Part shown: piece by piece, positions 1 through 61,383 of the stretch | Numbering within the stretch: position 1 is the first letter of the stretch | How the letters are laid out: each line of letters begins with the position of its first letter | NCBI RefSeq assembly: GCF_000372725.1 | Contig: NW_005201327.1 | Coordinates: forward strand, 77,022-141,021 | Reading direction: 5' to 3' | Source: Emiliania huxleyi CCMP1516 | Taxonomy: Eukaryota | Length of the DNA stretch: 64,000 nucleotides | Translations under genes and position numbers: made by a program | The notes under the pieces: model-generated | The model's input: only the letters and a program-made list of their open reading frames with translations | What the model was told of the DNA's origin: nothing | Database searches by the model: none

Positions 1-369
1 GGGTTGTGACATTTGGCGATTCCGCGGCTTACTGGGTCCCTGAGCCGCTCCCCGTGTGCGATTATTGTGGCCCAGGCATGGTACTGATAGTAAACGGGTC
101 AGAACCGGCCAAACACAGGCTACAGCCCCACACACGCGCCCGCCATAGCTCCTGGAGAGCATGCGCGAGTGACGCGCTACAAGCCGCGAGAGTGGCATCA
201 GAGGCAGGAACGACGTGCTCTTGCTGCACCTTGCAGCTGCACCGAGTGTGCTCGCAGTGTATGCCACGGCCGCCGCCTGCGGCATTGCTCTCGTGCAGCT
301 AAGGCGACGCAGGTCCATCAGCAGGGCTCATCCAATGCGAGCACACATTGTGCTTAGCCGCGCGGCACC

Positions 370-501
370 GGGCCGGTGCTTGCACTTTGAATGCCGTGGG
401 GCTCCTGCCCGTGTCCGGGCGTGGAGATGCGAGGGTCGCCCCCCCTTGCCCCACCACTTTGTGTGTGTGGAGACGTTTACCTTACGATACCTTACCTTAC
501 C
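370..501 (+). mobile_element. SINE-like element family A (CTTAC-tailed), intergenic copy
   Basis: Core GCACTTTGAATGCCGTGGGGCTCCTG...GAGGGTCGCCCCCCCTTGCCCCACCAC...GTGTGGAGA plus a TTACC-repeat tail; the same sequence recurs at least 7 more times in the window. Confidence 0.8.
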
Positions 502-546
502 CCCCAAAGAGCCGGAACCCAAACTTGGAGGATTTGGAGTCCAAAC

Positions 547-14277: not shown

Positions 14278-17200
14278 TCAAATCACGCCGTGCTCACGCC
14301 ACACCAGCTTGCAGCCTATCTGCTTGCCCTTGGCCTCCTTTTGCTGCGCGGCCTGCAGCGCCTGCCGCAGCCGCTCGAAGGGCTTGTTCGAGCCGTACGA
14401 GTAGAAGACCTCCTCGCCGGGCTCAATCTGCCGCGTGGCGAGAAGCACCGGCCGCACGACGGCGAGGTCGGCGACGGCCTTCCCGACGGCGGCGGGCTTG
14501 ACGAAGGCGAGCAGCGCGTTCGTGCGCCGCTTGTCGCGAGGGTCGTTGGCCATCGCGCCCGCGCCGAAGCCCCACGCGGCTGCGCCGGCCAGCGGCACGT
14601 GGCACCCGTCCGCTGACGGGTTGGCGGGGTTCGCGCGGATGGCGTCGGCGTACGGCTTGCCGTTGACGAGCGCGCCGCCCGCGTTCGGCAGCCGGACGAT
14701 GTAGGACGCGTCCGCCTGCGGCGACGTGTCATGGGACGTGTCCTGGACGTGTCGCGGCCGCGTCGTGGACGCGTCGTGGACGTGTCCGGGGACGACGGCA
14801 GGGGCGGGCGCCTCGGGCGCCATCTCCTCCTTGTACAGCAGCGAGCCGTGGTACGTCGAGACCACCTCGCCCGGCTGCACGCGCTCGCGCGCAAAGAGGC
14901 CGAGCCCCGCCGCCTCGCCGAGCGTGGATGGCCGCACCTGGAGGGATGGGGAGGGATGGGGAGGGATGGGGAGGGATGGGGAGGGATGGGGAGAGATGGG
15001 GAGAGATGGGGAGAGATGGGGAGAGATGGGGGGAGATGGGGAGAGATGGGGAGAGATGGGGAGAGATGGGGGGAGATGGGGAGAGATGGGGAGAGATGGG
15101 GAGAGACGGGGAGATCGCCGAGCGTGGACGGCCGCACCTCCACCCGCCCGTCCGCCAGCGTCCCGACCTCGCGGTGCCCGAGCGCGGCGAGGGGGCAGCG
15201 CCCCTCCGTCCCATACCCGCCCGCCCCGCCCCCCCCTCCGCCGCCTCCCCCTCCGCCGCCCCTTGCACCGCCGGCCCCTCCGCCGCCAGCCCCTCCGCCG
15301 CCAGCCCCTCCGCCGCCAGCCGCCGCCTCGTCCCTCGGCTGGCGGCCGCGCACCGCCACCGCCACCGCGGAGGCGGCGGCGGCGGCCGTCGCGCGACGGT
15401 GCTGCTGCGGCGGCGCTGCGGCCATGGCCTACACGGGGCGGTCCCCTCTTCATTTCGCCGTCTCTAGCCGGCGCACGAGAGTAGCCACGTCGGCGCGCAC
15501 TAGCTCACCTCCGTGTCCCAGTCCGCTCTCCTATGTTCCTACCGCAGATCTCTGGCACGTCTTGGAGCAGCTAGCCACCGCCACCGCGGCGTCGGCGTCG
15601 TCGGCCGCGTCCTCGCACGCGATGCAGCGGTCCTTCGCGCCGCCGTCGCGGTACTGCGCCTTGCACCCGTAGTGGAACCAGCGGCCGCAGTCGGCACACT
15701 CTGTCGCGAGGGCCTTGCGCGCCCTCGGGTCGGCGCAGACGCAGGACCACTCGCGGCGCTCCAGCTCTGCAGCACAGCGAGCGCCGTGCCGCTCGGCGGT
15801 GCGGTGCTCCTCCGCCTCGAAGCAGCGCGTGCACGACTGGCACTGCCAGACGAAGCGGCCGGCCGACGGGTCGTACCCCGCGCGCTGCAGCTCCTGCTGC
15901 TGGCACGACGAGCAAAGGAACGTCTTGTCGGCGGCGAAGCGCGCGAGCTCCGCGGGTGTGTAGTCGAGCCGCTCGCACTTGGAGTGGAAGGTGAGGGCGC
16001 ACGAGCGGCACTGCAGCTCGGCACCGCCGCGTAGCACGCCTCCCGCGCAGACGCACCCCCACTGGATGGCCGTGCCGCCGCGCCTGCTGGGGAGGCGAGG
16101 GGGGGGATGGGGGGGGGGGGGGGAAGAAGAAGGGGAAGGGGGGGGGGGGACCAGGAAGAAAAAAGCCAAGGCCGGAAAAGGGGGGGGGGGGGACAGGGAG
16201 GAGAGAGGCGGGATCGGGCTGGGGAGGAGGCGGCGGCGGTGCGGGGAAGGGAGCGGGGGAAGGGAGGCGGCAGGGGAGGAGGAGGGAGAGGAGGAGGAGG
16301 AGGCGCGCTGGCGAGGTTGCAGAGGCGGACAGGGGAGGAGGAGGAGGGGCGGGGAGGAGGAGGCGGCGGCAGGTTTGAAGGGGGGGGCGCGCCGCTTCTC
16401 TGCAATCTGGTCCGCGACGGAGGCGAGGGACTCGTTGGCGCACTTGTCGGCTCGGCCCTTGTGGAGGTAGTCTTGCAGCGCCGCCAGCTGCCGGCTCTGC
16501 CGGTTGCTCCTCGCCGCCGCCGCGGCCGCCTCCTGCGGGCGGCGAGGGCGAGGGCGGCGGAGAGAGCGGTGAGGGCGAGAGTGGCGAAGGGGTGAGGTGA
16601 GGGCCGAATGGGCGGTGAGGCCGTGGGGGCGATGAGGGCGACGGTGCGGGAGGAGGTGGTGGCGGCGAGGATGGCCGCGGCGGCGGCGGCGGCGGCGGCG
16701 GCGGGGGAGGGTCAGAGCGCCTTCGGGCTGGCGCAGCACACGCGAAGTGTGAGCGACACGCCGCCGCCGCCGCTGACGGAGAGAGCTGCCCGCACCGAGG
16801 TGGCGGCGGAGGCGGAGGCTGCGCGCGGCGGCGGTTTGCCCACCTCGGTGCACTCCTCCCACACCACCCCTCCACCCGAGCGGGTGCCTCCGCGCCCTCC
16901 CGAGCGCCGCTTCCGGGGCGGCTCGCCGCCGTCGCCAGGCTCCCGCTCCCGTCCCGCTCCGGATGCTACGGCCGGTGGCGGCGGCGGCCGCGGCGCCGGC
17001 GGTGACGGAGGAATGCCCTGGTCCTTGCGCCACGCGTCGGCGATGGAGACGGCGCGCTCCCCATTCGGGCCGTGGAAAACGTTGTACGAGCGCGCCACCG
17101 CCTTGCGCCGCTGGACCGTCCATCCCGGCGGGAGGGCCTTCGGGAGGGCCTTGGGAGCGCGGGGGTGCTTGGCCTCGGGCGGCGGCTGCCCGTCCTCAAG

Positions 17201-25085: not shown

Positions 25086-25440
25086 CCTGCCCCCGTGCCG
25101 CCGGGTGCAACTTTGTCCTATACGAGAGGGGAATCCCTAGCCCCCGACAGTTGACTCCAGGCCTTGTCCAGTGAGGGAGGGCGAGACGATCGAGGGGTCC
25201 CACCCGATGCGGAATCGACCCCACAAAGAACCCTGCACAAAGATCGCAAGGGCGGGGACCTGTTCTTTTTTACCCACCTCAATAAATAAATAAATACAAC
25301 GGACATCCCAAGCTAGGGCTGGGTCGAGGACAGACACGTCCCCACCTTTGCAGGATTTTGCAAAAGCGAGGGGGGAGGGCGCATCGCCGCGCGGAGAGGG
25401 CTGGGCACAGGGCACAGGGGATCTCTCTCGCATAGGATAT
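25086..25440. mobile_element. Two diverged, oppositely oriented copies of repeat family B ((TATT)n-tailed)
   Basis: CCTGCCCCCGTGCCGCCGGGTGCAACTTTGTCCTATA is shared with 50168-50204. TCCTAT.CGAGAG recurs inverted at ~25420-25440. AATAAATAAATAAATAC at ~25281. Confidence 0.55.
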
Positions 25441-25601
25441 GCAGTAGAGAGGCGTTACGCGCGTTAATCATTCATTTCTTTATTTATCCGCCAGTGCTCA
25501 AGGGGTGTCCCGCCAGACGCTCCACACCACCCGGCCGACCCTGTCTACTGCTGTCCCTCTGCCACGCTCCTGCTCCTACTCCTACTGCTACATTGTGTTC
25601 G

Positions 25602-27586: not shown

Positions 27587-28294
27587 CAAGGCAGTGCCGC
27601 GGTGGTGTCTGGTTGGGGCGGTGGCAGCGTCCAGAAAAAGAATTCAAGAAAGAAGAACTCTCTCTCACCGACACAGGTTCGACACAGGTACCAAAAGGAG
27701 CACAGCAGACGGCAACCCCTTAGGCGCCGTCGAAGAGACCGGCCCACCTGGCCGGCCGCTCTTCCCCCCTCCCCTCGAAAGCGCGCTCAATCGCTCGCTC
27801 GTCGCACTCCACCCCCCGAGCCCACCTTGCCGCGCTGCGGGCCTCCCGCCGCCGGCCATCGCGGGACCGCCGCCCGCCGCCACCCCCCCCACTCCCCCGC
27901 GCCGCCCGCGCTGCCGCCGCCTCCGCGCGCTCTTCCGCCAGCAACCGCTCCCTCTGCGTCACCGCGATGGGCCCCTGGCGCATCCACGACAAGTCGCGGG
28001 CACGCCCTATCCAGGGGTTACTCGAATACGGCGCTCTCCCTCTGCGCAGCTCCGAGTAGTCGCCAAAGCCCCCCCCCAAATAGCCCTCCAGGCAATCGTC
28101 GCAGCACCACTCGCCTAGCTGAGAGATCTGAAGCCCATAGGCAGCAATACTATCGCCCCGCCGCATCTCCTCCTCCGCCGCCTCCATCTCCTCTCGCGAG
28201 AAGTCCCCCAGCTCTGACCAGCCCTCCCGCATCGCCCGGCGCCAGAGCCAAGGCTCGACGCCAAACCCGCGGTAAAACTCCTCAAAGCAGTCCT

Positions 28295-29260
28295 GGGGCG
28301 GCGGCGAGCTCCCGGTTGCAAATACTCGCCTTACAGTCCAAGATGGCGGCTCGCGCCCCCATCCGTGCACCGGCGTGCCACTCTAGCCCCGCCTGCCGCC
28401 CAGATACCGAGGGCGGGGCGCACTCTTCGACTTGGGCTATTATTTGCCACCGGGAGGGCGGCGGCGGCGGTGTAGGGGCGGCGGCGAGCTCCCGGTTGCA
28501 AATACTCGCCTCACAGTCCAAGATGGCGGCGCGCGCCCCCATCCGCGCACCAGCGTGCCACTCTAGCCCCGCCTGCCGCCCAGATACCGAGGGCGGGGCG
28601 CACTCTTCGACTTGGGCTATTATTTGCCACCGGGAGGGCGTCGGCGGCGGTGTAGGGGCGGCGGCGAGCTCCCGGTTGCAAATACTCGCCTCACAGTCCA
28701 AGATGGCGGCTCGCGCCCCCATCCGTGCACCGGCGTGCCACTCTAGCCCCGCCTGCCGCCCAGATACCGAGGGCGGGGCGCACTCTTCGACTTGGGCTAT
28801 TATTTGCCACCGGGAGGGCGGCGGCGGCGGTGTAGGGGCGGCGGCGAGCTCCCGGTTGCAAATACTCGCCTCACAGTCCAAGATGGCGGCTCGCGCCCCC
28901 ATCCGCGCACCAGCGTGCCACTCTAGCCCCGCCTGCCGCCCAGATACCGAGGGCGGGGCGCACTCTTCGACTTGGGCTATTATTTGCCACCGGGAGGGCG
29001 TCGGCGGCGGTGTAGGGGCGGCGGCGAGCTCCCGGTTGCAAATACTCGCCTCACAGTCCAAGATGGCGGCTCGCGCCCCCATCCGTGCACCAGCGTGCCA
29101 CTCTAGTCCCGCCTGCCGCCCAGATACCGAGGGCGGGGCGCACTCTTCGACTTGGGCTATTATTTGCCACCGGGAGGGCGGCGGCGGCGGTGTAGGGGCG
29201 GCGGCGAGCTCCCGGTTGCAAATACTCGCCTCACAGTCCAAGATGGCGGCTCGCGCCCCC
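28295..29260 (-). repeat. 180-bp tandem repeat, ~5.4 copies, with a 360-bp higher-order pattern
   Basis: AATACTCGCC every 180 nt from 28321 to 29221; variants alternate between units. Confidence 0.95.
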
Positions 29261-29357
29261 AAGCATCCATGCTCTGATGTGTCGCTTGGGTCGCCTCTGC
29301 TGCTGTGTCTCTGTCTTAGCCAGATATCGAGAGCGCGCGACGACAACCAACCCCTTA

Positions 29358-29580
29358 CCCTAATCCTAACCCTAACCCTAACCCTAACCCTAACCCTAGC
29401 CCGAAGAACCCAAAGCATTCACCGAGAGCTCGTGTCGACGGACCGCTGATTCCTCCATTTGGTTTCGGCCCAAACCGGACCATTCTCTTAGGACTGCACA
29501 ACGGCTTGAACGCTCTCTGACCCTAACCCTAACCCTAACCCTAACCCTAACCCTAACCCTAACCCTAACCCTAATCCTAA
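29358..29580 (+). repeat. Two interstitial telomere-like (CCCTAA)n tracts (29358-29398 and 29521-29580)
   Basis: Direct reading of the sequence. Confidence 0.95.
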
Positions 29581-30038
29581 CGACACGGTGCTTCTTAAGA
29601 GGTCGTGCGCGTCGCTGCCGACGCATCTCGCGTGTATGGTGTATTTGCAGTGTATTTCGGCGGGGGCGCGCATTAAAAGAACATTGAGGCAACACACACG
29701 TCCTCGAGCGCCCGAGGACACGAACCAAGCTGCACCTCCTCTCGCTAGAGTTATTGTGGGCTCTTTCCTTTCTACACTTCCTTGCTTTCACCGCGTTTTG
29801 ATGCAGTGAGGGCGGGCCCCTGCTCTTTGAGCCTTGGGGACGACCACGGCCTTGACCACGGCCTCGCTGCAGGGAAGCAGGAACGCGCGGCATTGGTGGC
29901 ACAGAGATCCCTACCGGTGCCGGCAGTGGTAGGCGCACCGCCGCTCTCTCCGCTGTGCCGCCTCCGCCGCTGCCGCCTCGACTGCTGCCGCCTCCGCCGC
30001 TGCCGCCTCGGAGATGCCAGAGCCTTCGAAAGTAGTCG

Positions 30039-30147
30039 AACTTGTGAAATTTTCAGTGAGAAACGGGGGCGGCCGAAACGTTTCATGTGAAATTCACATG
30101 AATTCACATGTGAAAGTGAAAGTGTGAAAATTCACTCACGAACCCTG
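30039..30147 (-). mobile_element. TIR-like end, right (...TTCACTCACGAACCCTG)
   Basis: Inverted match to 10382-10488. Confidence 0.7.
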
Positions 30148-31223
30148 GGGCGGGGTCGGGAGCACGGGGAGTGGATGGTCGCTAGGGACGGCAGAGTTTA
30201 CCTGAGAGAGGTTTGCACATCGCGCTCGCGGCGTAGCTGTGGGCGCGGTCGACCCAGCCACATGTTTGAAAAATGCAGAAAAATGCACGCCGTTTACAAA
30301 ATGAACTCTCCTGCGGGAGCGGGAGGCGGCGGCGGACGAGGCGGCGGCGACGGGTCCTCCTCCATCCGATCGAGTGCGTCGGTCCGCTGCGCCTTGCCGG
30401 GCGGCGGCAAGCCTAAATTAGCGCCCGGCCTCGACACCGTCGCCCAGCCGCCGACAGCGGGGCGCTTGCCGTCGGGACGCGCAGTCTCGACAGCGGAGCG
30501 CGTGCTTCTTGCCGGCGGAGCAGCATGCTCCTCAGCAGCGAGCGCAGAAGCTTTCTTGCGTACCGCCGCCGCGCAGTCCTTATGGATGCGCGTCGACGCC
30601 GGAGACGCCGGACCGAGCGCTTCTCCTCGCTCTAGAGCCACGGCGGGCAGCCCGTTGGCCGCCTCACCGCCCTTGCGAGACCAGGTCGTGGTCCCGCACC
30701 ACCAACAGCCGTCCATCTGAGCGGCGACGGAGGCCAAGCCCGACGTCTGCGCTTTAGCCGATCACCTGGCCGCCCGCGACGAGCCGCCAGTCGGCGTGGC
30801 GGCGAGGAAGGGAGCGAGAGCACCGCCAGTGCGGCTGGCACCTGTGGCCTGGCCTGCGAATGCTCATAAAGCCTGTTCACCTGTTTTTCACACCTTTGAA
30901 AAGGTCGTTCAAACGCACCCTCTCGCCCCGTGCAGCCGGCTGCTTGCTGGTGGCACTAGGGCCGCTGGGACGCGCAAGAAGAATGAGCAAAAAAGACGAA
31001 GATGGCGACGAGCACGAGCATGCCAAAGTGGGACTTCGCGTGCTGGACGAGGGGACATCCAAGCTCTCTTCACAGGGGGTCGGCCGTTACAGGTGGTCGG
31101 CCTGACTGGAGGACGGCCCCGTGCGCGCTCCCAGCGCCGAGCCGCGGCCCCACGCGCCACCTGGGCTGCCTCTGGCACGGCCGGGGTCCGCCGAGAGGCT
31201 GGGCTTGGCCGGCGGCGCGACGC

Positions 31224-32672
31224 ATGGCCTGTGCTGCGGCCATCTCGGACGTTTAAGCGGCGCCAGCCAGCGGCTCGGCCGCGCATCCTTCACACACGCC
31301 GCCACGACCGGGACGAGCGGCCCCGGTGTCGAGCCATGGTGTGAGCTGCATGTGCGCGGCGGCCGTGGCGACAGCAGGTCCACCAGACGGACCTCAAAGC
31401 TTGCCGTCGGCGTGCTGTCGTGGCGAGAGCGCGAGACAGCTGCAGAGGAGCCGAGTGCAGTGGCGAGCCAGAAGCTACCTGGGTCACCAAGTGGTGGATC
31501 CTGCCCATTCTGACCAGGGCTGTGCTTTGGTGGGGTTGTGCTTGAGCGTGTGTGAAGTGGGAGTGCGTGCCGGCGGTGTCTGTGGGTGAAACAGGCGTGT
31601 GTGAGGCCGTAAGAGCCGTGGTATGAGCCAGAGTGGGCTTCATCACCCAAGATAAGGGCGGTTTGGGACAGCTCAGGCTTGATACTGATGGGGCTTGGCC
31701 AGGAGAGAGACAGAGAAGGCGAGGTGGTGAGCTGGGAAGCCGCTTTGTCTGCACCTGGACGTGTCGCGATGAAAAGTGCCAAGAAGCGCCTTTTGCGGCT
31801 ATTGCTCAAAACATTTGGAGAGAAGGCCTACATATTATGACTGCATCCATGCGTCTGGTGCATGAGGACTGTGGATCGGGACATTTCACGGTCGGTGGCG
31901 CCGACAATGACCTCCGTAAAGCCCTCACAATCGCTCGGCACGGGCCACCGGGAGTGCTCTCGAGCGCCTACACCGGAGCATCACGAGCCGGTGTGAGCTT
32001 GAAGACCCGAGATAAGTGCGGTCTGGGACAGCTCAGGCTTGCTACTGATGGGCCTGGGCCAGGAGAGCGACAGAGAATGCGAGGTGGTGACCTGAGAGCA
32101 GGAAATAGCGCTTCGTGGCAGGTGCTTCGCGACAAGTTTAGGCGCGGACAATGCAGCTTCTCAGCTCACCACCTCGCCTTCTCTGTCGCTCTCCTGGCCC
32201 AGGCCCATCAGTATCAAGTCTGAGCTGTCCCAAACCGTCCTTATTTTGGGTGATGAAGCCCACTCTGGCTCATACCACGGCTCTTACGGCCTCACACACG
32301 CCTGTTTCACCCACAGACACCGCCGGCACGCACTCCCACTTCACACACGCTCAAGCACAACCCCACCAAAGCACAGCCCTGGTCAGAATGGGCAAGGGCT
32401 ACCACTTGGTGACCCAGGTAGCTTCTGGCTCGCCACTGCACTCGGCTCCTCTGCAGCTGTCTCGCGCTCTCGCCACGACAGCACGCCGACGGCAAGCTTT
32501 GAGGTCCGTCTGGTGGACCTGCTGTCGCCACGGCCGCCGCGCACATGCAGCTCACACCATGGCTCGACACCGGGGCCGCTCGTCCCGGTCGTGGCGGCGT
32601 GTGTGAAGGATGCGCGGCCGAGCCGCTGGCTGGCGCCGCTTAAACGTCCGAGATGGCCGCAGCACAGGCCAT
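31224..32672. repeat. Long inverted repeat / foldback (arms 31224-31740 and 32156-32672)
   Basis: ~517-bp near-identical arms. Diverged third partial copy in the spacer (~31990-32100). Outer inverted remnants at 30866-30883 and 32824-32841. Confidence 0.9.
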
Positions 32673-37025: not shown

Positions 37026-38413
37026 ATGCGGTGCTCGAGCAGCTCGCGATCTGACTTGAACAGCCTCCCGGACACGCCCGAATCGCCCAAGAGGCTGCCA
37101 GAGGACCCTGAGCCGCCCAGCTCCGGCGTGGGAGTCCCGCCCGAGCAGCTTCATGGCGGCGACGGTGCTGTCGTGCAGCACGAAGGAACGCAGCGAACGG
37201 GACGCGTGAGCACAGGCCGCTCGGGCAAGTCCAAGCGCGTGCTGCGCGCGGAGAGGCGGCTGCGCGCCGGAGCTGGGACGCCGCCCGACGGCGACCGGCT
37301 CGGCCGCGTCTCTCCCGGCGGCTTGTCGCCCGGCCGCCTCAGTGGCCGAGGGAGCCCCGCGTCGCCGATCGAGTCGGCGCTCGGCGAAGTCGGCAGGCTG
37401 TGGGGCGTCCTCCGCCAAGAGCTGGCACGCGAGACGCCGTACGTGCCGGGCCTCTCGATCCACACGCCCAAGCGGCGGTGGCAGCTGACCGCCGCTTCGC
37501 TCACCCTGCTCGGCGCCGCGAAGGCGGGCGACGCGCTGCGCATACGGCGGCTGCTCCGCAGGTCACACACACACACGCACACACACACACACACCGCTCA
37601 CCCACGCGCACTGGGCCTTGCACTTTGAATGCCGTGGGGCTCCTGTCGTCAGACGTGGAGACGCGAGGGTCGCCCCCCCTTGCCCCACCACCTCGTGTGT
37701 GTGGAGAAGTTTAAATTTACCTTACCTTACCTGCTCTGCAGGCACGGCGCGAAGCTGCCGACGGTCTTCGAGGTCGTCACCGAGGCGGTGGAGATGCAGC
37801 GGAGGCAGTCCTTCGCGCTGCGGCGGGGCGAGGCGTCGGTCGGCGGTGGAGGTGCGGTGACAGTGCCCCCGCGCGGCGCCATGAGCGAGCCGCTGGCACG
37901 TCGCGCCGTGCCGCCGCCGCCGCCGGCGGCAGGTGCGGCGGCAAGGGCGGCGGCAAGGGCGGCGGAAGGGGCGGCGGCAGGGGCGGCGGCAGGGGCGGCG
38001 GAAGGGGCGGCGGAAGGGGCGTCGGAGGAGGCTGCCGGCACTTCCGATCTTAGCACCGGGCTGAGCGCGCCGGCAGAGGCCGTGGTCATCTCTCCCGGCA
38101 CCGCAGTCCCCCGGCCGCGCCCATATCTCCCCGGATCTCCCCAGATCTCGCCATGTGCCTCGCCACACACCTTGGGGCCAGATCTCGCCGTCCCTCCCGC
38201 AGGCTCGGAGCTTCTCCTCTCCCCCTCCTCTCCTCCCCCTGCCCCCCCCCCCCTCTCTCTCCTCTCCCCCCCCCACCTCAACCTCCTCGCCCTACTCCCC
38301 CCCCAGGCGCAGCGCCGGCGGTCGAGCCGCCCGTCAGCGCGGGCCCGTGGCGCGATCGACCGTGGTCCTCGCCTCCGGGCTGGATCGAGGCTCTCTCTCT
38401 CTCTCTGACTCTC

Positions 38414-38505
<92 letters not shown>

Positions 38506-40561
38506 CCCTCCGATCTCGAGAAGCGGAGATCGCATTCTAGCTCGACTCCAACCAGCGCTCGAGAGGGCACGTATTTGGATGCAGTCCGCCGTATTCCTGC
38601 GGTGTTCGTTGTCCTCGTGTGCCCCTCGTCCTCACGCGGTGCTCCGAGTAGTACTCTGCACGACCACTGCCCCTCCCCGCCCCGAGGCTGGCGTATCCAC
38701 ACAAACACACAACCCCGGACCCAAGACGCACAAGCAAGCACAGACCGTCGGGAAGGGAGAGACAGCGGCGGCAGTCAGAAGCCAGCGCTGGGTCCCAGGA
38801 AGGCGAATGCGAGGACGGCATCTAGTGCGAGCTCTAGCTAGTGAGCTCACCATTCCCCACGCAGGCAGCCGATGCCGAGGCGGGGTGGACGGCGCTGATG
38901 TGGGCCTGCTGGCTGGGGCACCGCGCCGTGGTGGAGGCGCGCGCCGTCTTTTTTCTTTTTTCTAGGCGGAGCTCGACCACTCGCACGGCACGACTGCAGC
39001 AACATGTCTTTTGCTGTGTAGGTGCTGCTGCGCGCCGGGGCGAGCGTCGCCACCCGCTCGGCGCAGGGAGGGAACACGGCGCTCATGTGCGCGTCGCGTC
39101 GAGGCGCCGTCGACCCCCCCCCCCTGCTCCCCTTGCTCCCCCCCTGCTCCCCTTGCTCCCCCCCTGCTCCCCCCTGCTCCCCCCCCTGCTCCCCCCTGCT
39201 CCCCCCTTGCCCCACCGCCTTGCGTGTGTGTGGAGAAGTGCACCTTCCCTTCCCTCGCCTTAGGCCACGCCGAGATTGTCCGCTTGCTGCTCGAGGCGGG
39301 CGCGGAGCCGGACGCGCGAAGCCACGACGGCGTGAGTGGGGTCGTCCTCGCTGCCGAGCACGGGCATCTCGAGGTCATGGCGAGATCTGGCGAGACGGAG
39401 AGGCATGGCGCGATCTGGCGAGAGGGAGGACGATCGGCCGTAAATCCCGAGGCGAGGCACGAGAGTCGTCGGTTGAGCTAGGGAGCCTGGCGAGGGACGC
39501 CACCAGTCCTCGACAGGCTCTGGTACTCCACACTGTCCGTGCGCCGGGCGTCGCACTCTGACTTTGAATGTGCACTGGGGGGTGTTGCCTGCCTGCTCGC
39601 CTGTCTGGGAGTGGAGCCTTGCGAGAAGGCCCTTTGATCCCCCCACCCCCTCGAGTGTGTGTGGAGGACGTTACCTCACCAGCCGAATCACCAGCCGAAT
39701 CGCCACAGGTGGTGCGCCTCCTCGTCTCCGCCGGCGCGGAGGCGCTGTGCTGCTGCTCGGACGGCAACCTCGGGGAATCTCGGGGAATCTCGGGGAATCT
39801 CGGGGAATCTCGGGGAATAGGCGCTCTGCTGCTGCTCGGACGGCAGCACCGCGCTGCACCTCGCAAGCCGCGGCGGTCACCCGCAGGTCGTGTCGTATCT
39901 CCTCGGCGCGGGGTGCGCCGTCAACGCGACCGACCACGCGGGCCTCACGCCGCTGCTATGCGCGGCGGCGGCGCTGGAGACGGACGCGCACGTCGACGTG
40001 ATCCTGCGGCTGCTGCAGGAGGGCGCCGACCCCGACGCCAAGAGGCTCGACGACGACCTGTGCGCGCTGGAGCTGGTCGAGCTGGCGTCGCCCTTGACGC
40101 TGCTGCAGCACCGCACCCCGTCCGGCGAGGCGGGCGGCGGTGGGGTGGGCGGCGAGGCGGGCGGCAGCGAGAGCGGCGGTGGGGCGGGCGGTGAGGCGGG
40201 CGGCGGCGAGGAGGGCGGCGGTGGGGCGGGCGGCGGTGGGGCGGGCGGCGGTGGGGCGGGCGGCGGCGCGGGCGGCAAAGAGCAGGGCGGCGAGGCGGGA
40301 GGTGGAGTCGGCGGCGGCGGCGGGCAGGCGATCGCGACGACGAGCGGCGATGCGGCGAGTGAAGCGGCACGTGAAGCGGCAGGTGAAGCGGCAAGCCGGA
40401 GGGTCAGGGCCGCGGCCAGCACTCGCCGGCAGCAGCGGGCGGCGAGGGTTGCGCTCGCGCTGGTCGCGGCGAGGAGCGCGCGCGCCGACCTCGGCGAGGG
40501 GCTGTGCAACTCCATCGCCCGCGCGCACGTCGCGGCATTGGGGCATTGTTTGTTGAGCTGA
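37026..40561 (+). CDS. Ankyrin-repeat protein, many introns
   Basis: Ankyrin segments GWTALMWACWLGH, GNTALMCASRR|GHAEIVRLLLEAGA, AAEHGHLE, GLTPLLCAA. Introns include 37562-37741 and 39742-39820. Confidence 0.7.
37562..37741 (+). mobile_element. Family A element forming an entire GT-AG intron
   Basis: (CA)n, core and CTTAC tail between direct repeats CTGCTC(C/T)GCAGG; removal gives LLRRHGAKLP in frame. Confidence 0.8.
38391..38500. repeat. (CT)n microsatellite
   Basis: Direct reading of the sequence. Confidence 0.95.
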
Positions 40562-41956
40562 TCCATTGGGGCATTGTTTGTGTTGAGCTGATCGACGCCT
40601 GATAGTTTTGACACGCACGCATGTCATGGTGGAGGGAGGGTCAGGCGTGCCTTAGCTCTACAGTAAGCTACATGCGTACAGCCGCGTGGATGCCCTCTCT
40701 GTCTACGTTATGGGCTGACGGTGACGCGTCACACAGACAATAACATGACGACACGTGTACGGCGCTAGGGAACCGCGTCGCCCCCGGAGCCGGTCGTCGA
40801 CCCCCTTATCCTTTGGCCGCATTGGCGTTGGGTAAAGCGTAGCGTTTAAGATTAGGTGAGTGTGTGAGACGGTTGGTTAGAGCGCGAGGATTGATGTCCA
40901 TTAGAGACAGAAGACTACGTCATGCAAAAAGTGTGGGAAAAAAACCAAAAACGCTGTCACGGCCAGCTCGGCACTATCTACTCAAAAAAAAGTGACGTAG
41001 AGCACCCACTTTTTAAGCGTTCCGCGCACACACAAGGTCCGCCTGCGTGCGCCGCCAGCTTCTCAGGGCCATCGCGCGAAAAACGACGGAGGAGATGCAT
41101 CCTAGCTGTCGCCACCGAAGGCGACTCGACGTCGCTGAGATCGGAGTTCGGAGATCAAGCTCTGACAGGTCACACGTCGCTCCTTTGACGCCGACGTGAC
41201 TCACCCGTGCAGAGCACATCAGGACACGGTCTCGACGGGCACTCTGCCAGAACTAAGACGAGACCGCGACCGACGGCGGGCCGTGCTTGCTGGCGAGCAT
41301 CCGCGCTGCTGACGACGTGCTAGAGACTGACCTTCAGAGCGACGAGATTCTCGCATGCTTTGAGGAGGCGCTCGGCGAACGGCAGCCAGAGATGGGAACG
41401 GATGCTGCAGCAGGGCGATAGGCGAATCCATCCCGCCTCGCAAGACGAGACTCACACGTGCGGCGCGCTCGCCGCAGGTCGGCGTGCGGAGCGTCGGGCA
41501 TCGGCTCGCCATCCCGGGAGCTTGCCTTGAGCGGCCCGGGCTGGGACCGACCGCGGGAGCTGCCTGCCTGCACCAACCAACCAACGGACATGAGCGATCC
41601 GCAGTTGTCGAAGCGCCCCCCCCCCCCCCCTGCTAGTGTCTGTCGTCGTTCCTACCCCTGATCCTACCCCACGGCTCACGCTAATGTCTGTCATCTCCAG
41701 CGCACAAAAGAATTTAAACAAAACAACTCTCTCTCACAGCACACAGGCTCGACACAGGTGCGAACTGGCGCGTGCAAAAGAAAAATCTAAACAAGCCGCA
41801 GGAAACCGGCGCTCAACCAACACCCCCTTGTTACACCCCACCACCCGAAGAGGCTGCTGGCGCGTGCGTGCGAGGCGTCCGAGCTGCAGCAGGTGAGGAA
41901 GCTGTCCGCGTCTCTGCTCGGCACGCAGTGGGCCGGGATCGAGTCGCCCCCCGCCA

Positions 41957-45437: not shown

Positions 45438-46694
45438 TCAGGGGGCCGCCGGCGGCGGCGGAGACGGGGGAGGCACCAGGGCCGCCAGAGCGAGCACCTT
45501 GTCCACGACGTGGATCACGCCGTTGCTGGTCTGGACGTCGGCGGAGATCACGGTGGAAGGGCCGCCGAGGATACTGGGCGTGACGAGGACGGAGCCGGTC
45601 GAGCCGTCGACCGTGATGTCCTCTCCGTTCAGCGTGGTTTGGGCGGAGTTCTCGAGCGTCAGCGCGACTGACGCTGGGACCTCGGAGCCGAGGGCGTGCT
45701 TCTGGAGGAGGGCGGTGACGATTGCATCGTCCGCGAGCACGCTTTGGAGGAAGGTCTGGTCGAGGGCAGCGAACGCGCCGTTCGTTGGGGCAAAGACGGT
45801 GTAGGACCCGGAGTTCGAGAGCGCGTCAGCCACCGCAGAAGACGCTCCGACCGCGGCGCAGAGCGTGCCGACGGTGGCGTCGAGGCTAGGGTCGCAGGCG
45901 ACCTGGGCGATGGACATGTAGGACCACGTCGCGATCACCTTGTTGATCTCGTGGATCACGCTACCGCCGTTGTCGGCCTCGGCGAGGTTGGGGGCGACCA
46001 CCTCAGCAGATCCTCCAACGATGGCGGGCGTGATGGTGACGGGCCCGGCGGTGCCGTTGCCGTCGACAACGATCTTCTCCGTGATGCTGTTGGTGGAGGC
46101 CAGGGTGTCGACAGGCTCGTTGACGAGGTTCAGCGCGTCCGCCGCCGGCACCTTGGACCCGAGGGTGTGCTTCAGCAGGAGGTTTGTGAGTGCGGCCTCG
46201 TTCTCGGGCTTGAGCAGGTCGGCGAGCGCTCCGTCTGGAAGGGCATCAAACGCGTCGTTGTTCGGAGCAAAGACCGTGTAGGTGCCCGCGGCGGAGAGCG
46301 CGGCGAGGACCGTGGGAGACGCAGCGATCGCGGCACAGAGCGTGGAGAACTGCGCCGGGGCGTTCGTGCCGCAGGCGACGTCGGCGATGGTGGAGTACGT
46401 GGAGATCGTGGAGTCCTCCTTCTTGTTCAGTCCGACACCGAGACCGACACCGAGGCCGAGAGCCAGTGCAAGCGTGAGTATCACGATGGCGATGATCCAT
46501 GTGTTGGAGCGCGCCTGTGAGAGGGCCGAGTGCGTGAGAGCCAGTGCAAGCGCGACGATCACGATGGCGAGGATCCATGTGTTGGAGCTGTGCGAGGGCG
46601 AGCGCGTGAGGAGAGGAGAGAGAGGGAGGCGTCTGGGCTGGTGGGAGCGCACCTTGGGCGGCAGTCCCTTCTCGAGGTCGGCTGCGCGGCACAT
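45438..46694 (-). CDS. Membrane-anchored protein with two fasciclin (FAS1) domains
   Basis: YTVFAPNNDAF...VIHEINKVI and YTVFAPTNGAF...NGVIHVVDKVL; N-terminal TM helix; likely intron 46515-46652. Confidence 0.9.
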   Translation of the reverse strand: MCRAADLEKGLPPKVRSHQPRRLPLSPLLTRSPSHSSNTWILAIVIVALALALTHSALSQARSNTWIIAIVILTLALALGLGVGLGVGLNKKEDSTISTYSTIADVACGTNAPAQFSTLCAAIAASPTVLAALSAAGTYTVFAPNNDAFDALPDGALADLLKPENEAALTNLLLKHTLGSKVPAADALNLVNEPVDTLASTNSITEKIVVDGNGTAGPVTITPAIVGGSAEVVAPNLAEADNGGSVIHEINKVIATWSYMSIAQVACDPSLDATVGTLCAAVGASSAVADALSNSGSYTVFAPTNGAFAALDQTFLQSVLADDAIVTALLQKHALGSEVPASVALTLENSAQTTLNGEDITVDGSTGSVLVTPSILGGPSTVISADVQTSNGVIHVVDKVLALAALVPPPSPPPPAAP

Positions 46695-48096: not shown

Positions 48097-50064
48097 CTAA
48101 GTTCGAGCCCGGCCGTCTCGCTCCGGCCGGTGCTGCTGCGCCGGTGGCGCGCGGCGCGGCCACATGCTGCCGCCGTCCGCCTGGACCACGGAGATGGTGA
48201 CAGTGGCGCTGACGTTGGCGTCGGTCTCGACGATGGCGGTGGTGCCGATGGGTCGGCGGGCGACGTGGCGGACGAAGCTGCTCTCGTCGTCGGTGACGAG
48301 CGTGTAGGAGAGGCGGTCGATCTCCGGCAGCAGCAGCTCGTCGGCAAAGTCGAACGCCCACCGCCGCGCGCCGACGAGGTGGAGCGTCCTCGACGCGCGC
48401 GTCGCCTTGAGGCGCGGAGGCTGCAGCGCCGGCCACGCCGCGTCCTGCACGCTGCTCGCCGAGTCGTCGATGAGTGTGCGCCGGCCGCCAACGAACGAGC
48501 CGCTGAGCTTCACCGACGCGTAGCCGCCCGTGCTCTTTGCGGCGAAGAGATTGTCGCGGATGATCACGTTGTCGAGCGACGCCCCGCCGTCGCCCTCGGC
48601 CTGCTCCGCGCCCTCCGCCGCCGCGCGCAGCTCGACGTGCGCGTTGAGGAAGAAGGAGGACTCGACCGTGAGGCTCGAAGGCGCGTGCACGATCAGGTGG
48701 TTGAAGTCCAGGTAGCAGCTGCGCAGCCGCGTCTGCGGAGAGAGGTCTGAGGTCAAGTAAACTTCTACTTCACACACCGTAAGTGGGTGGTGAGGCAGGG
48801 GCCGGGCAGCCCTCGCATCTCCACACACCCGGACAGGCAGGAGCAGGCCCGGCATTCAAAGTGCGAGGCCCGGTGCACGTGGGTGAGCAACCTGCGGAGA
48901 GAAGACGGAGCCGCCGACGACGATGCCGCCCGCGAGCGCCTGCGCGCGCGCCAGACAACGCGTCAGACAACGCGGTAGGGCGGGGAGCGCGCGACCGCGG
49001 ACGCGGCAGCCCGCACATTATTCCACACGTGCACTCCGCTCAGCGTGTTGCAGCAGCCGTCGACCGTCACGCCCGTCTGCGTGTACGCGAACACGATGAC
49101 GTCGGAAAGCACGTTGTCGATCGAGTCGACGACAACGCCCACCGACGTCGAGTTGAGCCTCGCGACGATCACCGACGGCAGCAGCGCCTCCGACCAGAAG
49201 TACTCCGCCGCCCACACCTGCGTTATGAGCCCCTCGTGCCCGCCCGCCAGGCGCAGGCCGAAGCGGCGGAAGCCATAGAAAAAGGCGTCGGCCACGGTGG
49301 CGCCCATCGTGCACGCCACGAGCAGGCCGCCCGCAGCGACGTGCGCCGCGTCAAAGTAGACCTCCCGCACGTTGACAAACTAGAGAGGAGTCAACTCTAC
49401 TGGTCCAGAGGGCACCGCCGTTCATGGCTACGAATGGTTAGTCTGGCACCTCATTGCAGCTCTTCTGGCCATCGGGGAGCCCGCGCGCGTCGAACGGATG
49501 GCAGTCGACACTGCCAACGGTGAGGAGCACACCGTTGCGGGGGAACGACGAGGAGGCGCGCAGCGTGCCGCGCATGATGTAGAAGTTCCCAAAGAAGGCT
49601 GGGACGAGAAGCGGCTGCGAAATGAGGAACTCGCCCTCGAGCTCCAGCGTCGCGCCGCCGAGGTCTGTGATGTTTGATGCCAGTTTCGAGGCGGCAGGTT
49701 TGAGACTACCCACCGACAGGAGCGCGACCAACGCTGCCTGCAGCGCTCTCGTCGAGTCGAGCCTGCCTGTTGGGTCCGCTCCAAAGTCCACCGGTCGAAA
49801 GTTGCGACCCGATCTTGGCTGAAGAAGCGTTGGCGCGTGAGAGGAGCGCACGCCTGGCACCGGCGCCACGGCGAGCGCCGTCGCGTGGAGTCGCTGCGCC
49901 GCGATGAGTGTGGTCGGAGGCCTGTGGGCTGCAAGCGCCACTGCTGAGGCAGAGGTGTGCGACGCGACGCTCGGCAGGAAGAGGGTGTAGCAAAACACGA
50001 GCCACAAATTAAAGAGAGCCGATGGGGCGGCCTCGTCAGAGAGGGGCCGCGGCCACATGAACAT
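48097..50064 (-). CDS. Pectate_lyase_3 superfamily beta-helix protein (QRT3-like), multi-exon
   Basis: FRPVDFGADPTGRLDSTRALQAAL, ITDLGGATLELEGEFLISQPL, GTLRAS, GHEGLI, TRLRSCYLDF. Confidence 0.75.
48733..48891 (-). mobile_element. Family A element forming an entire GT-AG intron
   Basis: Flanked by the 11-bp repeat TCTCTCCGCAG (minus strand); removal gives GSVFSPQ|TRLRSCY. Confidence 0.75.
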
Positions 50065-50306
50065 GAGCAGAGTGGGCTGCGAAGGGCGAAGGCGGCGGCG
50101 AACAAGCGCTCCAAAACCACTGAAGTGCAAGAAAAAAAATAAAAGCTCGGGGGCAATCTCCGCTGGTCCTGCCCCCGTGCCGCCGGGTGCAACTTTGTCC
50201 TATACATGCGCTCCCCGCTCCCGTTCCCCTGTGTCCCTGATCGTCCTTACAAGATCCTGCTCGCGCAGGTGGGGACCCTGTCGCTTCTCCCAGCTCCCAC
50301 CCCTTG

Positions 50307-50382
50307 AGACGCGAGGGTTGCCCCCCCTTGCCCCACCACCTCGTGTGTGTGGAGAAGTTTACCTTACCTTACCTTACCTTAC
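50307..50382 (+). mobile_element. 5'-truncated family A copy with a 13-bp TSD, nested in a family B repeat (50168-50426)
   Basis: CTCCCACCCCTTG at 50294-50306 and 50383-50395; clean (ACCTT)n tail. Confidence 0.85.
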
Positions 50383-50439
50383 CTCCCACCCCTTGTTTGG
50401 TGTGTCCGTTTTATTTATTTATTTATGGTCCTGTTTTCT

Positions 50440-51807
50440 TCAGTGTATGTAGCTCTTGTCATCGCCTTCCACCGTGAGTAATACCGGCACGCCGGCCGCA
50501 TATGGCGGGCTCGTCTTCGCGTCCTCGCCGTCCGCATCGGGATCGCAGAACATGAACAAAGGCACGCCGCGCCGCGTCGCCATCGCGAGCACCGACTGCG
50601 TCGCGTCGCCATACGCCTCGCCCACGCTGCGCCCCTTGGCGAGGGCGGCGAAGAAGGCGCGCGCGAGCGTGCGCGACGCCGCGTCGGCCGCCTTGGTCCG
50701 CCAGCAGACGACGTGCGGCACGCCGCGCTGCCGGAGCTGCGCGCCGAGGCTGGCCGTGTCGCAGCCGTTGAGGAAGACGAGCTGCAGGCCGTGCGAGGCG
50801 AGCATGGCCGCGAGCGTCGTCGGCAGCGTCAGCTCGAGCTGCCCCGTCGCCGTGTTGGTGAAGCCGAGCGTGACGGTGCGGCTCGCCTCGCGCGCCTCGC
50901 TCGCGTCCTTCGCCGCCTCGCTCGCGGCCGCCGGCGCGGCGGCGGCGGCGGCGGCGGCGGATCGCACGGGCGGCAGCCGCACGTCGCCATGGCCCGAAAA
51001 GAGGAAGTACTTGTACGCGCCGTGGCCGTCGAGCAGCTCCTGCTTGAGGTCCGTCGGCGAGCCGCCGCGCCGGATGCGCGCCGTCACCTCGTTGGCCACG
51101 TCGATCGCCTCGTCCTTGGCGTGTGGCAGATGCAGGCTCTGCTGCGTCGGGCTGCAGACGAAGATAAGCGCCTCGCGCGGCGCGCCGCCGCCGCTGGTCG
51201 CGCACGAGGCGACGCTCGTCGCGTCGCTCGCCTGACGCGACACGTCGGCGCCGCTCGGCGGCGCGCCGCTCGGCGGCGCGTCGCCACCGAGCGAGAGGCG
51301 GCCGAGGGTGGCGGCCGCGTCGAGCAGCTCCGAGTCGCACACGTGCGCGTCGGCGAGGCACGCGGCGCCGGCGTCCTTGTGCGCGCGCAGAGCCGCGTAC
51401 AGCTGCTTCGCATCCGCGGCGGTCATGAAGAGGACCTTCGTGCCTCGCCGCAGCGCGCCGCGGTGGTATGCATCGAGCAGCTCGACATCGGCGGGCGGCG
51501 CCTTTTGCTGGTGCTCGACGTTCGAGCCGAGCATGAATTTGAGGCACGGCTCGCCGGCACTCGCCGAGTGCGTCACCTCGATGCGCGTCAGCTCGCCCAT
51601 GGGCCACTGCAATTCATGCTTCTTGCGCTTTTTGAGGAGCAGCCGCCCGCTCTCGAAGTTGAGCTCAAGCTTGCAGCCGCGGGGCAGCGTGACCTCGTCC
51701 TTGTTGGGCGAGTCCTCATCCTTGTCGCCGGGGGAGAGACGCGTCGGCGTGACGGAGATCTTGTCGGGCGAGGGCGTTGAGGGCGTTGAGGAGCCCGAGG
51801 CGGGCAT
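50440..51807 (-). CDS. CHAT-domain (caspase-clan) protein
   Basis: YFLFSGHG and LVFLNGCDT His/Cys motifs, GVPHVVCW, FFAALAKG.SV.EA. Confidence 0.8.
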   Translation of the reverse strand: MPASGSSTPSTPSPDKISVTPTRLSPGDKDEDSPNKDEVTLPRGCKLELNFESGRLLLKKRKKHELQWPMGELTRIEVTHSASAGEPCLKFMLGSNVEHQQKAPPADVELLDAYHRGALRRGTKVLFMTAADAKQLYAALRAHKDAGAACLADAHVCDSELLDAAATLGRLSLGGDAPPSGAPPSGADVSRQASDATSVASCATSGGGAPREALIFVCSPTQQSLHLPHAKDEAIDVANEVTARIRRGGSPTDLKQELLDGHGAYKYFLFSGHGDVRLPPVRSAAAAAAAAPAAASEAAKDASEAREASRTVTLGFTNTATGQLELTLPTTLAAMLASHGLQLVFLNGCDTASLGAQLRQRGVPHVVCWRTKAADAASRTLARAFFAALAKGRSVGEAYGDATQSVLAMATRRGVPLFMFCDPDADGEDAKTSPPYAAGVPVLLTVEGDDKSYIH

Positions 51808-51841
51808 GAATCCTCGGTGCAAGGCGCGACACTTTCACACC

Positions 51842-51992
51842 TAAGGTACTCGAGTAAGCCTAGATTTCTCCACACACACAAAGTGGTGGGGCAAGGGGGG
51901 GCGACCCTCGCATCTCCACGCCCGGACACGGGCAGGAGCCCCACGGCATTCAAAGTGCAAGCACTGGCCCGGTGCACGTGGGTGAGCAGCCT
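51842..51992 (-). mobile_element. Family A copy upstream of the CHAT ORF (possible 5' intron)
   Basis: Near-identical to 370-480 in reverse; ends in ...TACCTTAG. Confidence 0.75.
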
Positions 51993-52350
51993 GCCCCTCC
52001 CTCCCGACAAACCAACTCCCGCACACACACAATCGCACTCTGGCCATCGAATGACTCCGAATGACTCACTGTGTGTGCTAAGACAGAATCTCCGCAGACA
52101 GCCAAAACGGGCCCTGCCGCGTTGTTGGTGCCTTCTCAAGTACTAGCAAGCATCCGGGCTTTCACGTGTTCTGTGCTGCCTGGTGACTCACCTCACACCT
52201 GCACGCCCGTGCGGCGCGCCAAGGCGAGGCCGGCGCCTTGCACCCGGCCCGCGGCCGGCTCCGCCTCGCCCCACCACTGACCGCTCTGCGGCTTCTGCGC
52301 GCAGGCATCACCACAACAGAAGTACGTACATGCCGGCCCCGATCGAGGTG

Positions 52351-56997: not shown

Positions 56998-57411
56998 CAG
57001 GTGCGTATTCTTTTTGCTTGGGGCGGACAGAATGCTGAATTCTGGAAAAACCTGACCGGCCCCTGCTGTGCCCCTACCTACCTACCTACCTACCTACCTA
57101 CCCTACTTATGGGAAACTAAAAAAGAAATCACGGTATCGGTGAAGGTGGGGTGCTATTCCAACTAAAGTGATGGCTGGTGGTACTCTCCTGCAATCACAG
57201 TCCTTCCTGTGACATGGCAGGCCACTATCAAGCCCTACAAGCACCAGATCACCCACTTGGGGAGGGTTGACGTCGTGATTTTCGCCGAAAATTTCTTTTT
57301 TTGCTGTGAAAATTCCGGCGTGAAGAGAGGGGAAAACCCGACGGGAGCGCCCAGACCTACCCTACCTACCCCGGCATGCTGTCCGCCCCAAGCAAAAAGA
57401 ATACACACCTG
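56998..57411. mobile_element. MITE with ~40-bp TIRs
   Basis: CAGGTG(C/T)GTATTCTTTTTGCTTGGGGCGGACAG inverted at both ends; GTATGGG duplicated on both flanks. Confidence 0.8.
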
Positions 57412-59996: not shown

Positions 59997-60682
59997 CTAC
60001 GAGGTCAAGGTCCAGCGGATGTACCACTCGACGATGTCGAGCGGGAAGAAGATCCAGTTGAGCGGGAAGGGCAGCGAGAAGCCGTACTTGAGCTGCGAGT
60101 AGAAGCCCAGCCCCGCGATCGAGTAGCCCACCACCTCGTCCAGCTTGGTGTCGGCCTCATCCGGGATCGAGGTGTACCCCTTGTTGCGCACCCACGCCAT
60201 CAGCCCGCGCGCAAACATGAGCCCGCCCACCATCGCCAAGTGCGCCGCCGACACAACCTCCTGCAGCTTCCACGCGATGAAGCAGCCGATCGAGCGCGAG
60301 GCGTTCTTGATGACGAACTGTATCCAGTTGTGGTACTCCTTTGGCAGCGTGTGCACCAGGAAGGGCACGGCGACCTTTTGCGCGAGCGGCGCGATCATGC
60401 CCGAGATGGAGATGCCGAGGGCGATCGTCTTTGCGAACTCGATGCGCAGCATGCCTTGCACCGCGATCCACGACGTCATCAGCCCGCCGAGCGCCGCCGA
60501 CAGCTTTTCCGGGTCCTTGACGGCCTGCGCAGAGAGGTAAGGGTAAGGTGCGGTACGGTACACTTCTCCACACGCACGAGGTGGTGGGGCAAGGGCCAGG
60601 CTAGCCCCTCGCGTCTCCACGTCTAGACGACAGGAGCCCCACGGCATTGAAAGTGCAAGGCCCAGTGAGTGTGTGTGTGAGC

Positions 60683-60747
<65 letters not shown>

Positions 60748-61383
60748 CGGCCTGCGCAGAGACAGCTAGCTTGCGCGAGAGGAGCTCGTTCGAGTCGATG
60801 TCGCCCTTCTCGAGGTGCGCCGCGTCGTCGTGCTTCTTGCTGTCGCTCACGTTCGCCGCCCACACCGCCTGCACGTCCTTGCCGATGTCGATCAGCGCCG
60901 CCTCTGTCCTGTCCCAGCCGCAGACCTGGAACGCCTTGACCGCTGAGATGGAGGCGGTGTATCCGCCGCCACAAAAGGTGAGCGCGAGGCCGGCGAGGGT
61001 CTGGATCGCCTCCTTGGGCAGCCTCTGGTACAGCTCGAACCCGAGGTTGCCCAGCTTCAGGTAGAAGGGGCCGATGTAGTCAATCAGCAGCCGTGCGATG
61101 AAGCCGATCGGCTTCGCGAGCGGCTTGAGCGTGTTGGCCACCTGCGGCGATCGGACGTGCGCGTGGCGAGAGCGCCGCTGGCCCGACCCCGCGAGGCGTG
61201 CTGGGTGTGTGGCACGTGTGGCACACAGTGCTCTCGGTGGCACCGCCTCGGCTCTCCCGCCGTCATCTGTGTGAAGGGCGCCTTGGCGAGGACCGGCGGC
61301 TCGCCCTCCGAGGCGCGCATGATCTGAGACGCGAGCGTCTGCTTCTCTACGAAGGCATCGGTCTCCGCCGACTCTTTCGTCAT
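59997..61383 (-). CDS. Multi-pass membrane protein of unknown function, multi-exon
   Basis: Hydrophobic helices across three frames; intron 60525-60751 and another ending near 61142. Confidence 0.7.
60525..60751 (-). mobile_element. Family A element forming an entire GC-AG intron
   Basis: Perfect 18-bp repeat TCTCTGCGCAGGCCGTCA at 60518-60535 and 60745-60762; removal gives LAVSAQ|AVKDPEK. Confidence 0.85.

What the first reader, a model, noticed from the sequence alone, without database searches (positions are those of the whole stretch)
50294..50395. Intergenic 5'-truncated copy with a perfect 13-bp TSD reveals the insertion mechanism
Only the 3' ~76 bp of family A is present, with a clean (ACCTT)n tail, between two copies of CTCCCACCCCTTG and nested in another repeat. 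The direct repeats therefore form independently of splicing, and the pattern fits non-LTR retrotransposition.
Basis: partly seen in the sequence, partly recalled or inferred. Interest (0 to 1): 0.7.

Follow-up and report, generated by a model that had tools for sequence, protein, structure and literature searches.

The report
Truncated retroelement whose siblings become introns
A 76-base tail-end piece of a repeated element sits between two identical 13-base copies of its target site, likely pasted in by reverse transcription in what is likely a coccolithophore alga, and sister copies inside genes have intron ends, one of them being skipped in RNA like a new intron.

Summary
Observation confirmed. 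50307-50382 is the last 76 nt of repeat family A with a (TTACC)n tail, between two exact 13-mers, nested in a second tailed element (B) that has its own 8-bp duplication. B paralogs carry one 13-mer homolog. Across metagenome copies the 3' end is kept (86 of 97), 5' ends scatter, and duplications of 7-18 bp flank 17 of 41 copies (5 of 300 shuffled pairs); duplications tend to start in the tail's register. This fits target-primed reverse transcription of a non-autonomous non-LTR element; long relatives carry one orphan ORF and no reverse transcriptase was found. Two corrections: the site is not plainly intergenic (RNA contigs place it in the 3' UTR of a CHAT-domain gene), and this copy has GT-AG ends on that strand. 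The 'no splicing needed' point rests instead on 6 of 19 duplicated copies with no splice ends. Sibling copies in exons have GT/GC-AG ends; one is skipped in RNA and present in 4 of 4 DNA runs. Verdict: ordinary insertion mechanism, but good evidence for a non-LTR introner family in an Emiliania-like genome.

The parts
50294..50306 (+). left copy of the 13-bp target-site duplication (part of host element B)
   Evidence: B paralogs have one homolog of it
50307..50358 (+). 5'-truncated family A body: last two predicted hairpins of the 3' end, starting at the foot of the third
   Evidence: (z -2.27, 6 of 200 shuffles fold as well)
50359..50382 (+). (TTACC)n tail; reads (GGTAA)n, a GTAAG donor-like run, on the minus strand
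50383..50395 (+). right copy of the 13-bp duplication; its first two letters continue the tail register
50172..50425 (+). host element B (second tailed repeat family, (TTTA)n tail), including the nested A copy
   Evidence: RNA contigs skip it exactly; L070 copy is 5'-truncated with a 13-bp duplication
50164..50171 (+). left 8-bp duplication of element B
50426..50433 (+). right 8-bp duplication of element B
50440..51834 (-). CHAT-domain open frame whose 3' UTR contains the B+A insertion
   Evidence: (PF12770, E 1.7e-10)
48733..48891 (-). sibling family A copy acting as a 159-nt GT-AG intron, 11-bp duplication ending in CAG
   Evidence: skipped in RNA X11, X15; present in 4 of 4 DNA runs
37562..37741 (+). 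sibling copy, predicted 180-nt GT-AG intron, 12-bp duplication (1 mismatch); removal restores the frame
   Evidence: no RNA test
60525..60751 (-). sibling copy, predicted 227-nt GC-AG intron, 18-bp duplication; removal restores the frame
   Evidence: no RNA test
39104..39263 (+). degenerate sibling, predicted 160-nt GC-AG intron in an ankyrin-like frame; acceptor made of tail TTA plus G; no clear duplication left
   Evidence: no RNA test
51866..52150 (-). longer family A copy (subfamily A3) with a very short tail, no duplication found
365..506 (+). family A copy with a degenerate tail, no duplication found
25282..25445 (-). family B paralog with one homolog of the 13-mer (empty-site comparison)

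Best explanation
The 76-nt piece is the tail end of a repeated element and was likely inserted by target-primed reverse transcription of a non-autonomous non-LTR retroelement RNA. Shown: fixed 3' end with a (TTACC)n tail, scattered 5' ends, duplications of variable length, a single 13-mer in B paralogs, long relatives with one ORF. Inferred: an unidentified LINE protein nicks the target, the RNA tail pairs with 1-4 target bases, synthesis stops early, and a second nick 13 nt away gives the duplication. Also inferred: because removal of element plus one duplication restores the target exactly, copies that land in exons survive when the duplication, the tail and the truncated 5' end supply GT/GC and AG, so the family works as an introner; this was seen in RNA for one sibling.
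For: Duplication of 7 bp or more in 17 of 41 distinct copies with both flanks (12 of 10 bp or more), against 5 of 300 and 2 of 300 shuffled flank pairs; lengths 7-18. 3' core plus tail in 86 of 97 copies anchored on a mid-element 26-mer. Element lengths 55-417 nt in 41 copies, up to about 1.3 kb upstream in L025. Duplication starts in the tail register in 16 of 19 (1 nt or more) and 9 of 19 (2 or more), against 23% and 5% for random flank positions. B paralogs show one 13-mer homolog: X9 contig and loose-end consensus in four DNA runs, window 25323, L065, L070, L102. Sense GT/GC-AG ends in 8 of 19 copies against 1.6-1.9 expected, and in 5 of 5 whose empty site reads as an open frame with GC3 0.87 or more in the element's direction. 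Copy 48733-48891 is skipped with CT..AC ends in RNA runs X11 and X15, plus a second joint from an internal donor to the same acceptor in X15, while single DNA contigs span it in 4 of 4 runs.
Against: No reverse transcriptase or endonuclease was found in or linked to any copy, so the motor is unidentified. 24 of 41 copies had no duplication of 7 bp or more by the rule (two were found by eye and added); 69 of 110 cores were dropped first (54 no 5' flank, 6 duplicates, 5 no tail or contig end, 3 short 3' flank, 1 no hit). 11 of 97 copies failed the 3' test; about 7 are true 3' breaks. The metagenome set was picked by a mid-element pattern and under-samples short copies. The register test is partly built in, since the duplication was allowed to slide into the tail. 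RNA and DNA runs are different samples; the RNA joints are single contigs at depth 2.6-9.4, and X12 and X14 gave no joint there. An A-less allele at this exact locus could not be tested because joints in 50351-50394 were masked.
Confidence: 0.87

Rival explanations
1. Family A is moved by a Penelope-like element or another reverse transcriptase that is not a LINE.
For: 5' truncation is also typical of such elements (recalled). One copy has a 26-nt inversion (L077), one tandem pair exists (L027), and B copies meet tail to tail at 25086-25445. No LINE protein was found.
Against: Clean short-repeat tail with duplications of 7-18 bp that start in tail register. No hammerhead or other ribozyme match in the window at E up to 1. 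No terminal repeat of the element's own end was noticed in L022 or L025, though both are cut by contig ends.
Confidence: 0.05
2. The piece is a cDNA patch captured during repair of a staggered double-strand break, without an element-encoded nick.
For: Many copies lack a duplication (24 of 41 by rule), and junctions show 1-4 nt of microhomology.
Against: Patches need not keep the 3' tail, yet 86 of 97 do; 12 of 41 have duplications of 10 bp or more.
Confidence: 0.04
3. Family A spreads as an intron by reverse splicing, and the direct repeats are exon ends.
For: 13 of 19 duplicated copies, this one included, have GT/GC-AG ends on one strand; one sibling is spliced.
Against: 6 of 19 duplicated copies have no such ends; donors and acceptors fall at different places in different copies; 5' ends vary; reverse splicing gives no 7-18 bp duplication (established knowledge, recalled).
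Confidence: 0.02
4. A is a DNA transposon (MITE-like introner) or the repeat is a chance or assembly product.
For: About 82% of classified introners are TIR DNA transposons (PMC12130899).
Against: No shared 5' end or inverted termini seen in 41 copies; variable duplication length; chance about 1e-5; family present in many independent contigs.
Confidence: 0.02

Closest known systems
5'-truncated non-LTR retrotransposon insertions made by TPRT (review PMC2881922, passages)
   Same: 3' end of short repeats, 5' truncation, target-site duplication.
   Different: No partner LINE or clade could be assigned here.
ORF1-only non-autonomous LINEs: HAL1, HeT-A, Ag-Sponge (PMC5786205, passages)
   Same: Long family A elements (L022, L025) carry one 260-300 aa ORF, then a 3' UTR with the shared end; no RT.
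   Different: The ORF has no Pfam, Atlas or distant homolog, so it is not shown to be an ORF1; dN/dS 0.72 between two copies is inconclusive.
Introners, including the 5% classed as non-LTR (PMC12130899, section 6 and supplement rows; PMC9860276)
   Same: Repeated element that forms introns by co-opting splice sites from its duplication. E. huxleyi CCMP1516 is already listed with three introner families.
   Different: Those three are classed Unknown, Unknown and LTR, none non-LTR; their sequences were not seen, so identity with family A is open (one is noted with '10bp terminal direct repeats'). Family A introns vary in length and 5' end, and the tail can serve either strand.
tRNA-, 5S- or 7SL-headed SINEs
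   Same: Short, high-copy, non-autonomous, LINE-like tail.
   Different: No tRNA or Rfam head found in the window copies; short copies look like truncations of longer elements.

Membership tests
non-LTR (TPRT) insertion | fixed 3' end with poly(A) or short-repeat tail | tested here: met
   86 of 97 copies
non-LTR (TPRT) insertion | variable 5' truncation | tested here: met
   lengths 55-417 nt in 41 copies; sample biased to long copies
non-LTR (TPRT) insertion | target-site duplication of variable length | tested here: met
   7-18 bp in 17 of 41 against 5 of 300 shuffled pairs
non-LTR (TPRT) insertion | empty site with one copy of the duplicated sequence | tested here: inconclusive
   met in B paralogs; the orthologous A-less allele was masked
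non-LTR (TPRT) insertion | partner LINE with RT and endonuclease sharing the 3' end | tested here: inconclusive
   none found; no host genome was available
ORF1-only non-autonomous LINE (HAL1-like) | single ORF without RT upstream of the LINE 3' end | tested here: met
   L022, L025; 142 homologs of 141-452 aa, only 3 longer, with unrelated or no domains; both contigs cut the element
ORF1-only non-autonomous LINE (HAL1-like) | homology of the ORF to a LINE ORF1 | tested here: inconclusive
   no family match; model pLDDT 47, not searched
SINE | head derived from tRNA, 5S or 7SL RNA | tested here: not met
   no ARAGORN or Rfam hit on window copies; long loci were not scanned
introner | homologous copies spanning whole introns in unrelated genes | tested here: met
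   window 37562, 48733, 60525 and loci L014, L018, L113
introner | spliced from transcripts | tested here: met
   one copy only: 48733-48891 in RNA X11, X15, present in 4 of 4 DNA runs of other samples
Penelope-like element | pseudo-LTR, hammerhead ribozyme, RT with GIY-YIG | tested here: inconclusive
   no Rfam ribozyme hit; no RT found; full-length ends not available

The most novel reading that the evidence does not exclude
A high-copy non-autonomous non-LTR family with orphan-ORF master elements is a two-way introner in Emiliania. In sense the (TTACC)n tail gives branch point, pyrimidines and often the acceptor (TTA plus G); in antisense it gives AG|GTAAG, and tail-target pairing at CT puts an AG on the far duplication. 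Retrotransposition would then make scarless introns routinely, be a main source of recent intron gain and of GC-AG introns in this alga, and explain the direct repeats at its intron ends.
Probability: 0.35. Interest if true: 0.75.

Novelty: new variant of a known kind. Interest (0 to 1): 0.5.

Why it matters
Most described introners are DNA transposons and about 72% are unclassified (PMC12130899). A family with clear TPRT marks shows in sequence how a retroelement can make frame-neutral introns, and suggests that similarity screens needing matched ends miss 5'-truncated ones. It gives a testable source for part of the GC-AG excess reported in E. huxleyi (56-65% GC donors, PMC4028052): 3 of the 8 sense-intron copies use GC. 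The single insertion itself is ordinary.

Tried and rejected
No host genome was held. Search for the autonomous partner failed: no RT upstream of the anchor in 13 long loci read by eye, none in 80 window ORFs (15 of 95 candidates were not sent), no 3'-end match in viral or prokaryotic collections; the one tail-only hit L122 is an AT-rich giant-virus-like contig with no family body, rejected as chance; L123-L125 are 0.7-kb fragments in a bacterial MAG, likely contamination; viral contigs gave no ORF relative. ORF identity: Pfam, Atlas and the profile search gave only fragments of the same family, all 360 aa or shorter; AlphaFold pLDDT 47, so no fold search. One search used an incomplete reference and was replaced. 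A tRNA or ribozyme head was considered and not found. Covariation in the 3' hairpins rests on essentially one subfamily change and is not counted as support. The L077 inversion has no clear duplication and is not claimed as twin priming. Summed contig depths were not used as copy number. The product of null probabilities for six hand-picked coding copies is post hoc and not relied on. Earlier-findings look-ups returned nothing.

Full report
Check of the observation. The 13-mer CTCCCACCCCTTG occurs only at 50294-50306 and 50383-50395. Between lies a 76-nt insert matching the 3' end of a repeat found 7 more times in the window and ending in a perfect TTACC run. Its 56-nt body is identical in 15 metagenome loci, so it belongs to a young subfamily (inference). 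The chance of such a repeat at both ends is about 1e-5.

Host. The genome is a 65% GC eukaryote. The ORF of long family A elements has many homologs named Emiliania huxleyi CCMP1516, so the window is inferred to be Emiliania/Gephyrocapsa or a close relative.

The surrounding repeat B. B spans 50172-50425, ends in (TTTA)n and is flanked by its own 8-bp repeat. A B copy in L070 is 5'-truncated with a 13-bp duplication, so B looks like a second non-LTR family. B paralogs carry a single homolog of the 13-mer: window 25323, L065, L070, L102/L107, an X9 contig, and the loose-end consensus at 50282 in four DNA runs. None showed two. The A-less allele at this exact locus was not testable because joints in 50351-50394 were masked.

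Of 97 distinct copies with enough 3' sequence, 86 keep core and tail; 22 too short and 5 duplicates were set aside; several of the 11 failures have a degenerate tail and about 7 are real breaks. Of 110 3' cores, 41 distinct copies had both flanks (69 dropped: 54, 6, 5, 3, 1 as listed in the Against line). They are 55-417 nt long and 17 have a duplication of 7-18 bp at both boundaries, against 5 of 300 shuffled pairs. In 19 duplicated copies (17 plus 2 found by eye) the duplication begins in the tail's register far more often than random flank does (16 of 19 against 23%), as expected if the RNA tail pairs with the nicked target; the test is partly built into how the boundary is set. At least three subfamilies share the 3' 130 nt, which folds into three hairpins with little independent covariation. 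The finding's copy begins at the foot of the first hairpin, which is only suggestive of a stalled reverse transcriptase. L022 and L025 extend over 1 kb and carry one 260-300 aa ORF with a predicted long helix and no known family. No RT was found anywhere. These marks match the description of TPRT products in PMC2881922 (passages), and the layout recalls ORF1-only LINEs (PMC5786205, passages), but ORF1 homology is not shown.

Splicing. Removing the element and one duplication restores the target, so any GT/GC and AG reachable by sliding within the duplication gives a scarless intron. Eight of 19 copies have such ends in sense against 1.6-1.9 expected, including 5 of 5 whose empty site is an open high-GC3 frame in that direction. 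Two geometries recur: AG inside the duplication (window 37562, 48733, 60525) and tail TTA plus the first G of the duplication (L014, L018, L070, L113, window 39104). For 48733-48891, RNA contigs of X11 and X15 skip 159 nt with CT..AC ends and 11 shared letters, X15 also joins an internal donor to the same acceptor, and both runs splice the neighbouring ordinary intron. DNA contigs span the copy in X1, X4, X8 and X9. An empty allele would mimic the first joint but not the second. Samples differ and depths are low. Six of 19 copies have antisense AG|GTAAGG ends (about 2.2 expected without allowing for tail pairing), this copy among them, and 6 of 19 have no splice ends at all.

Is the site intergenic? 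RNA contigs in X11 and X14 run from the CHAT-domain ORF through 50439 straight to 50171, skipping B and the nested A exactly, with one copy of the 8-bp repeat (the two extra letters fit a 3-nt deletion seen in all four DNA runs). So the site is in a 3' UTR. B's 3' end is attached to this flank in all four DNA runs. The skip is either an empty allele in those populations or a GA-AG intron; one GA donor was verified in E. huxleyi (PMC4028052, passages). I cannot separate these.

What is known. Introners include non-LTR elements (5% of classified; PMC12130899 section 6). Supplement rows list three E. huxleyi families, two Unknown and one LTR, without sequences, and 79 initially recovered elements in the 2022 study. 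Files 13-14 of the 2025 supplement were not searched. A review of transposon-derived introns mentions retrotransposon origin only for single introns in the passages seen (PMC11282704). A recent genome preprint gave no family detail in the passages seen (10.1101/2024.05.26.595999). Eight searches (listings only except where a paper is cited) found no description of this family, but Repbase, which holds E. huxleyi entries (a name appears), could not be checked.

Verdict. The mechanism is most likely TPRT of a non-autonomous non-LTR element (0.87), which is ordinary. The interest lies in the family: 8 copies in 64 kb (about 20,000 if scaled to the 167.7 Mb, a rough extrapolation from one window), several forming introns, with a tail that can supply splice signals on either strand. 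Novelty: new variant of a known kind. Interest 0.5.

Noticed in passing
window 50164-50433: Element B with the nested A copy is skipped exactly in RNA contigs of X11 and X14 but attached in four DNA runs: empty allele or a GA-AG intron about 10 nt after the CHAT stop codon.
   Followed up: partly
L022:72-845, L025:1856-2656: Orphan 260-300 aa ORF family in long family A elements; many copies are annotated as E. huxleyi hypothetical genes and three are fused in gene models with U-box, perforin-domain or unlabelled parts.
   Followed up: partly
window 4028-4116, 14915-15128, 39748-39845, 46458-46552: Other short inserts, three of them 10-bp microsatellite runs, are flanked by exact direct repeats of 14-23 bp; possibly further duplication-flanked insertions or introns.
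   Followed up: partly
window 25086-25445: Two family B copies meet tail to tail in opposite orientation; in L073 a reversed B replaces the tail of an A copy.
   Followed up: no
L077:1508-1627: Family A copy with a 26-nt inverted 5' segment; no duplication found.
   Followed up: partly
window 10381-11103 and 28295-30148: Two related 180-bp tandem arrays in opposite orientation, one beside (CCCTAA)n runs at 29352-29581; may be a satellite or an element with telomere-like repeats.
   Followed up: no
window 31224-32672: 546-nt inverted repeat, 97% complementary, 357 nt apart; foldback-like element.
   Followed up: no
window 6224-7186 and 12627-13589: 963-nt near-identical inverted duplication ending next to the 100-N gap at 7192; possibly an assembly artefact.
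   Followed up: no
window 9556-9625, 11547-11612, 27633-27699, 41706-41775: A third short dispersed repeat family of about 60 nt with four copies.
   Followed up: no
L025:1-1680: The left half looks bacterial and joins the algal element abruptly; probably a chimeric metagenome contig.
   Followed up: no
window 57073-57102 and 57350-57370: (CCTA)n runs resembling another short-repeat tail.
   Followed up: no
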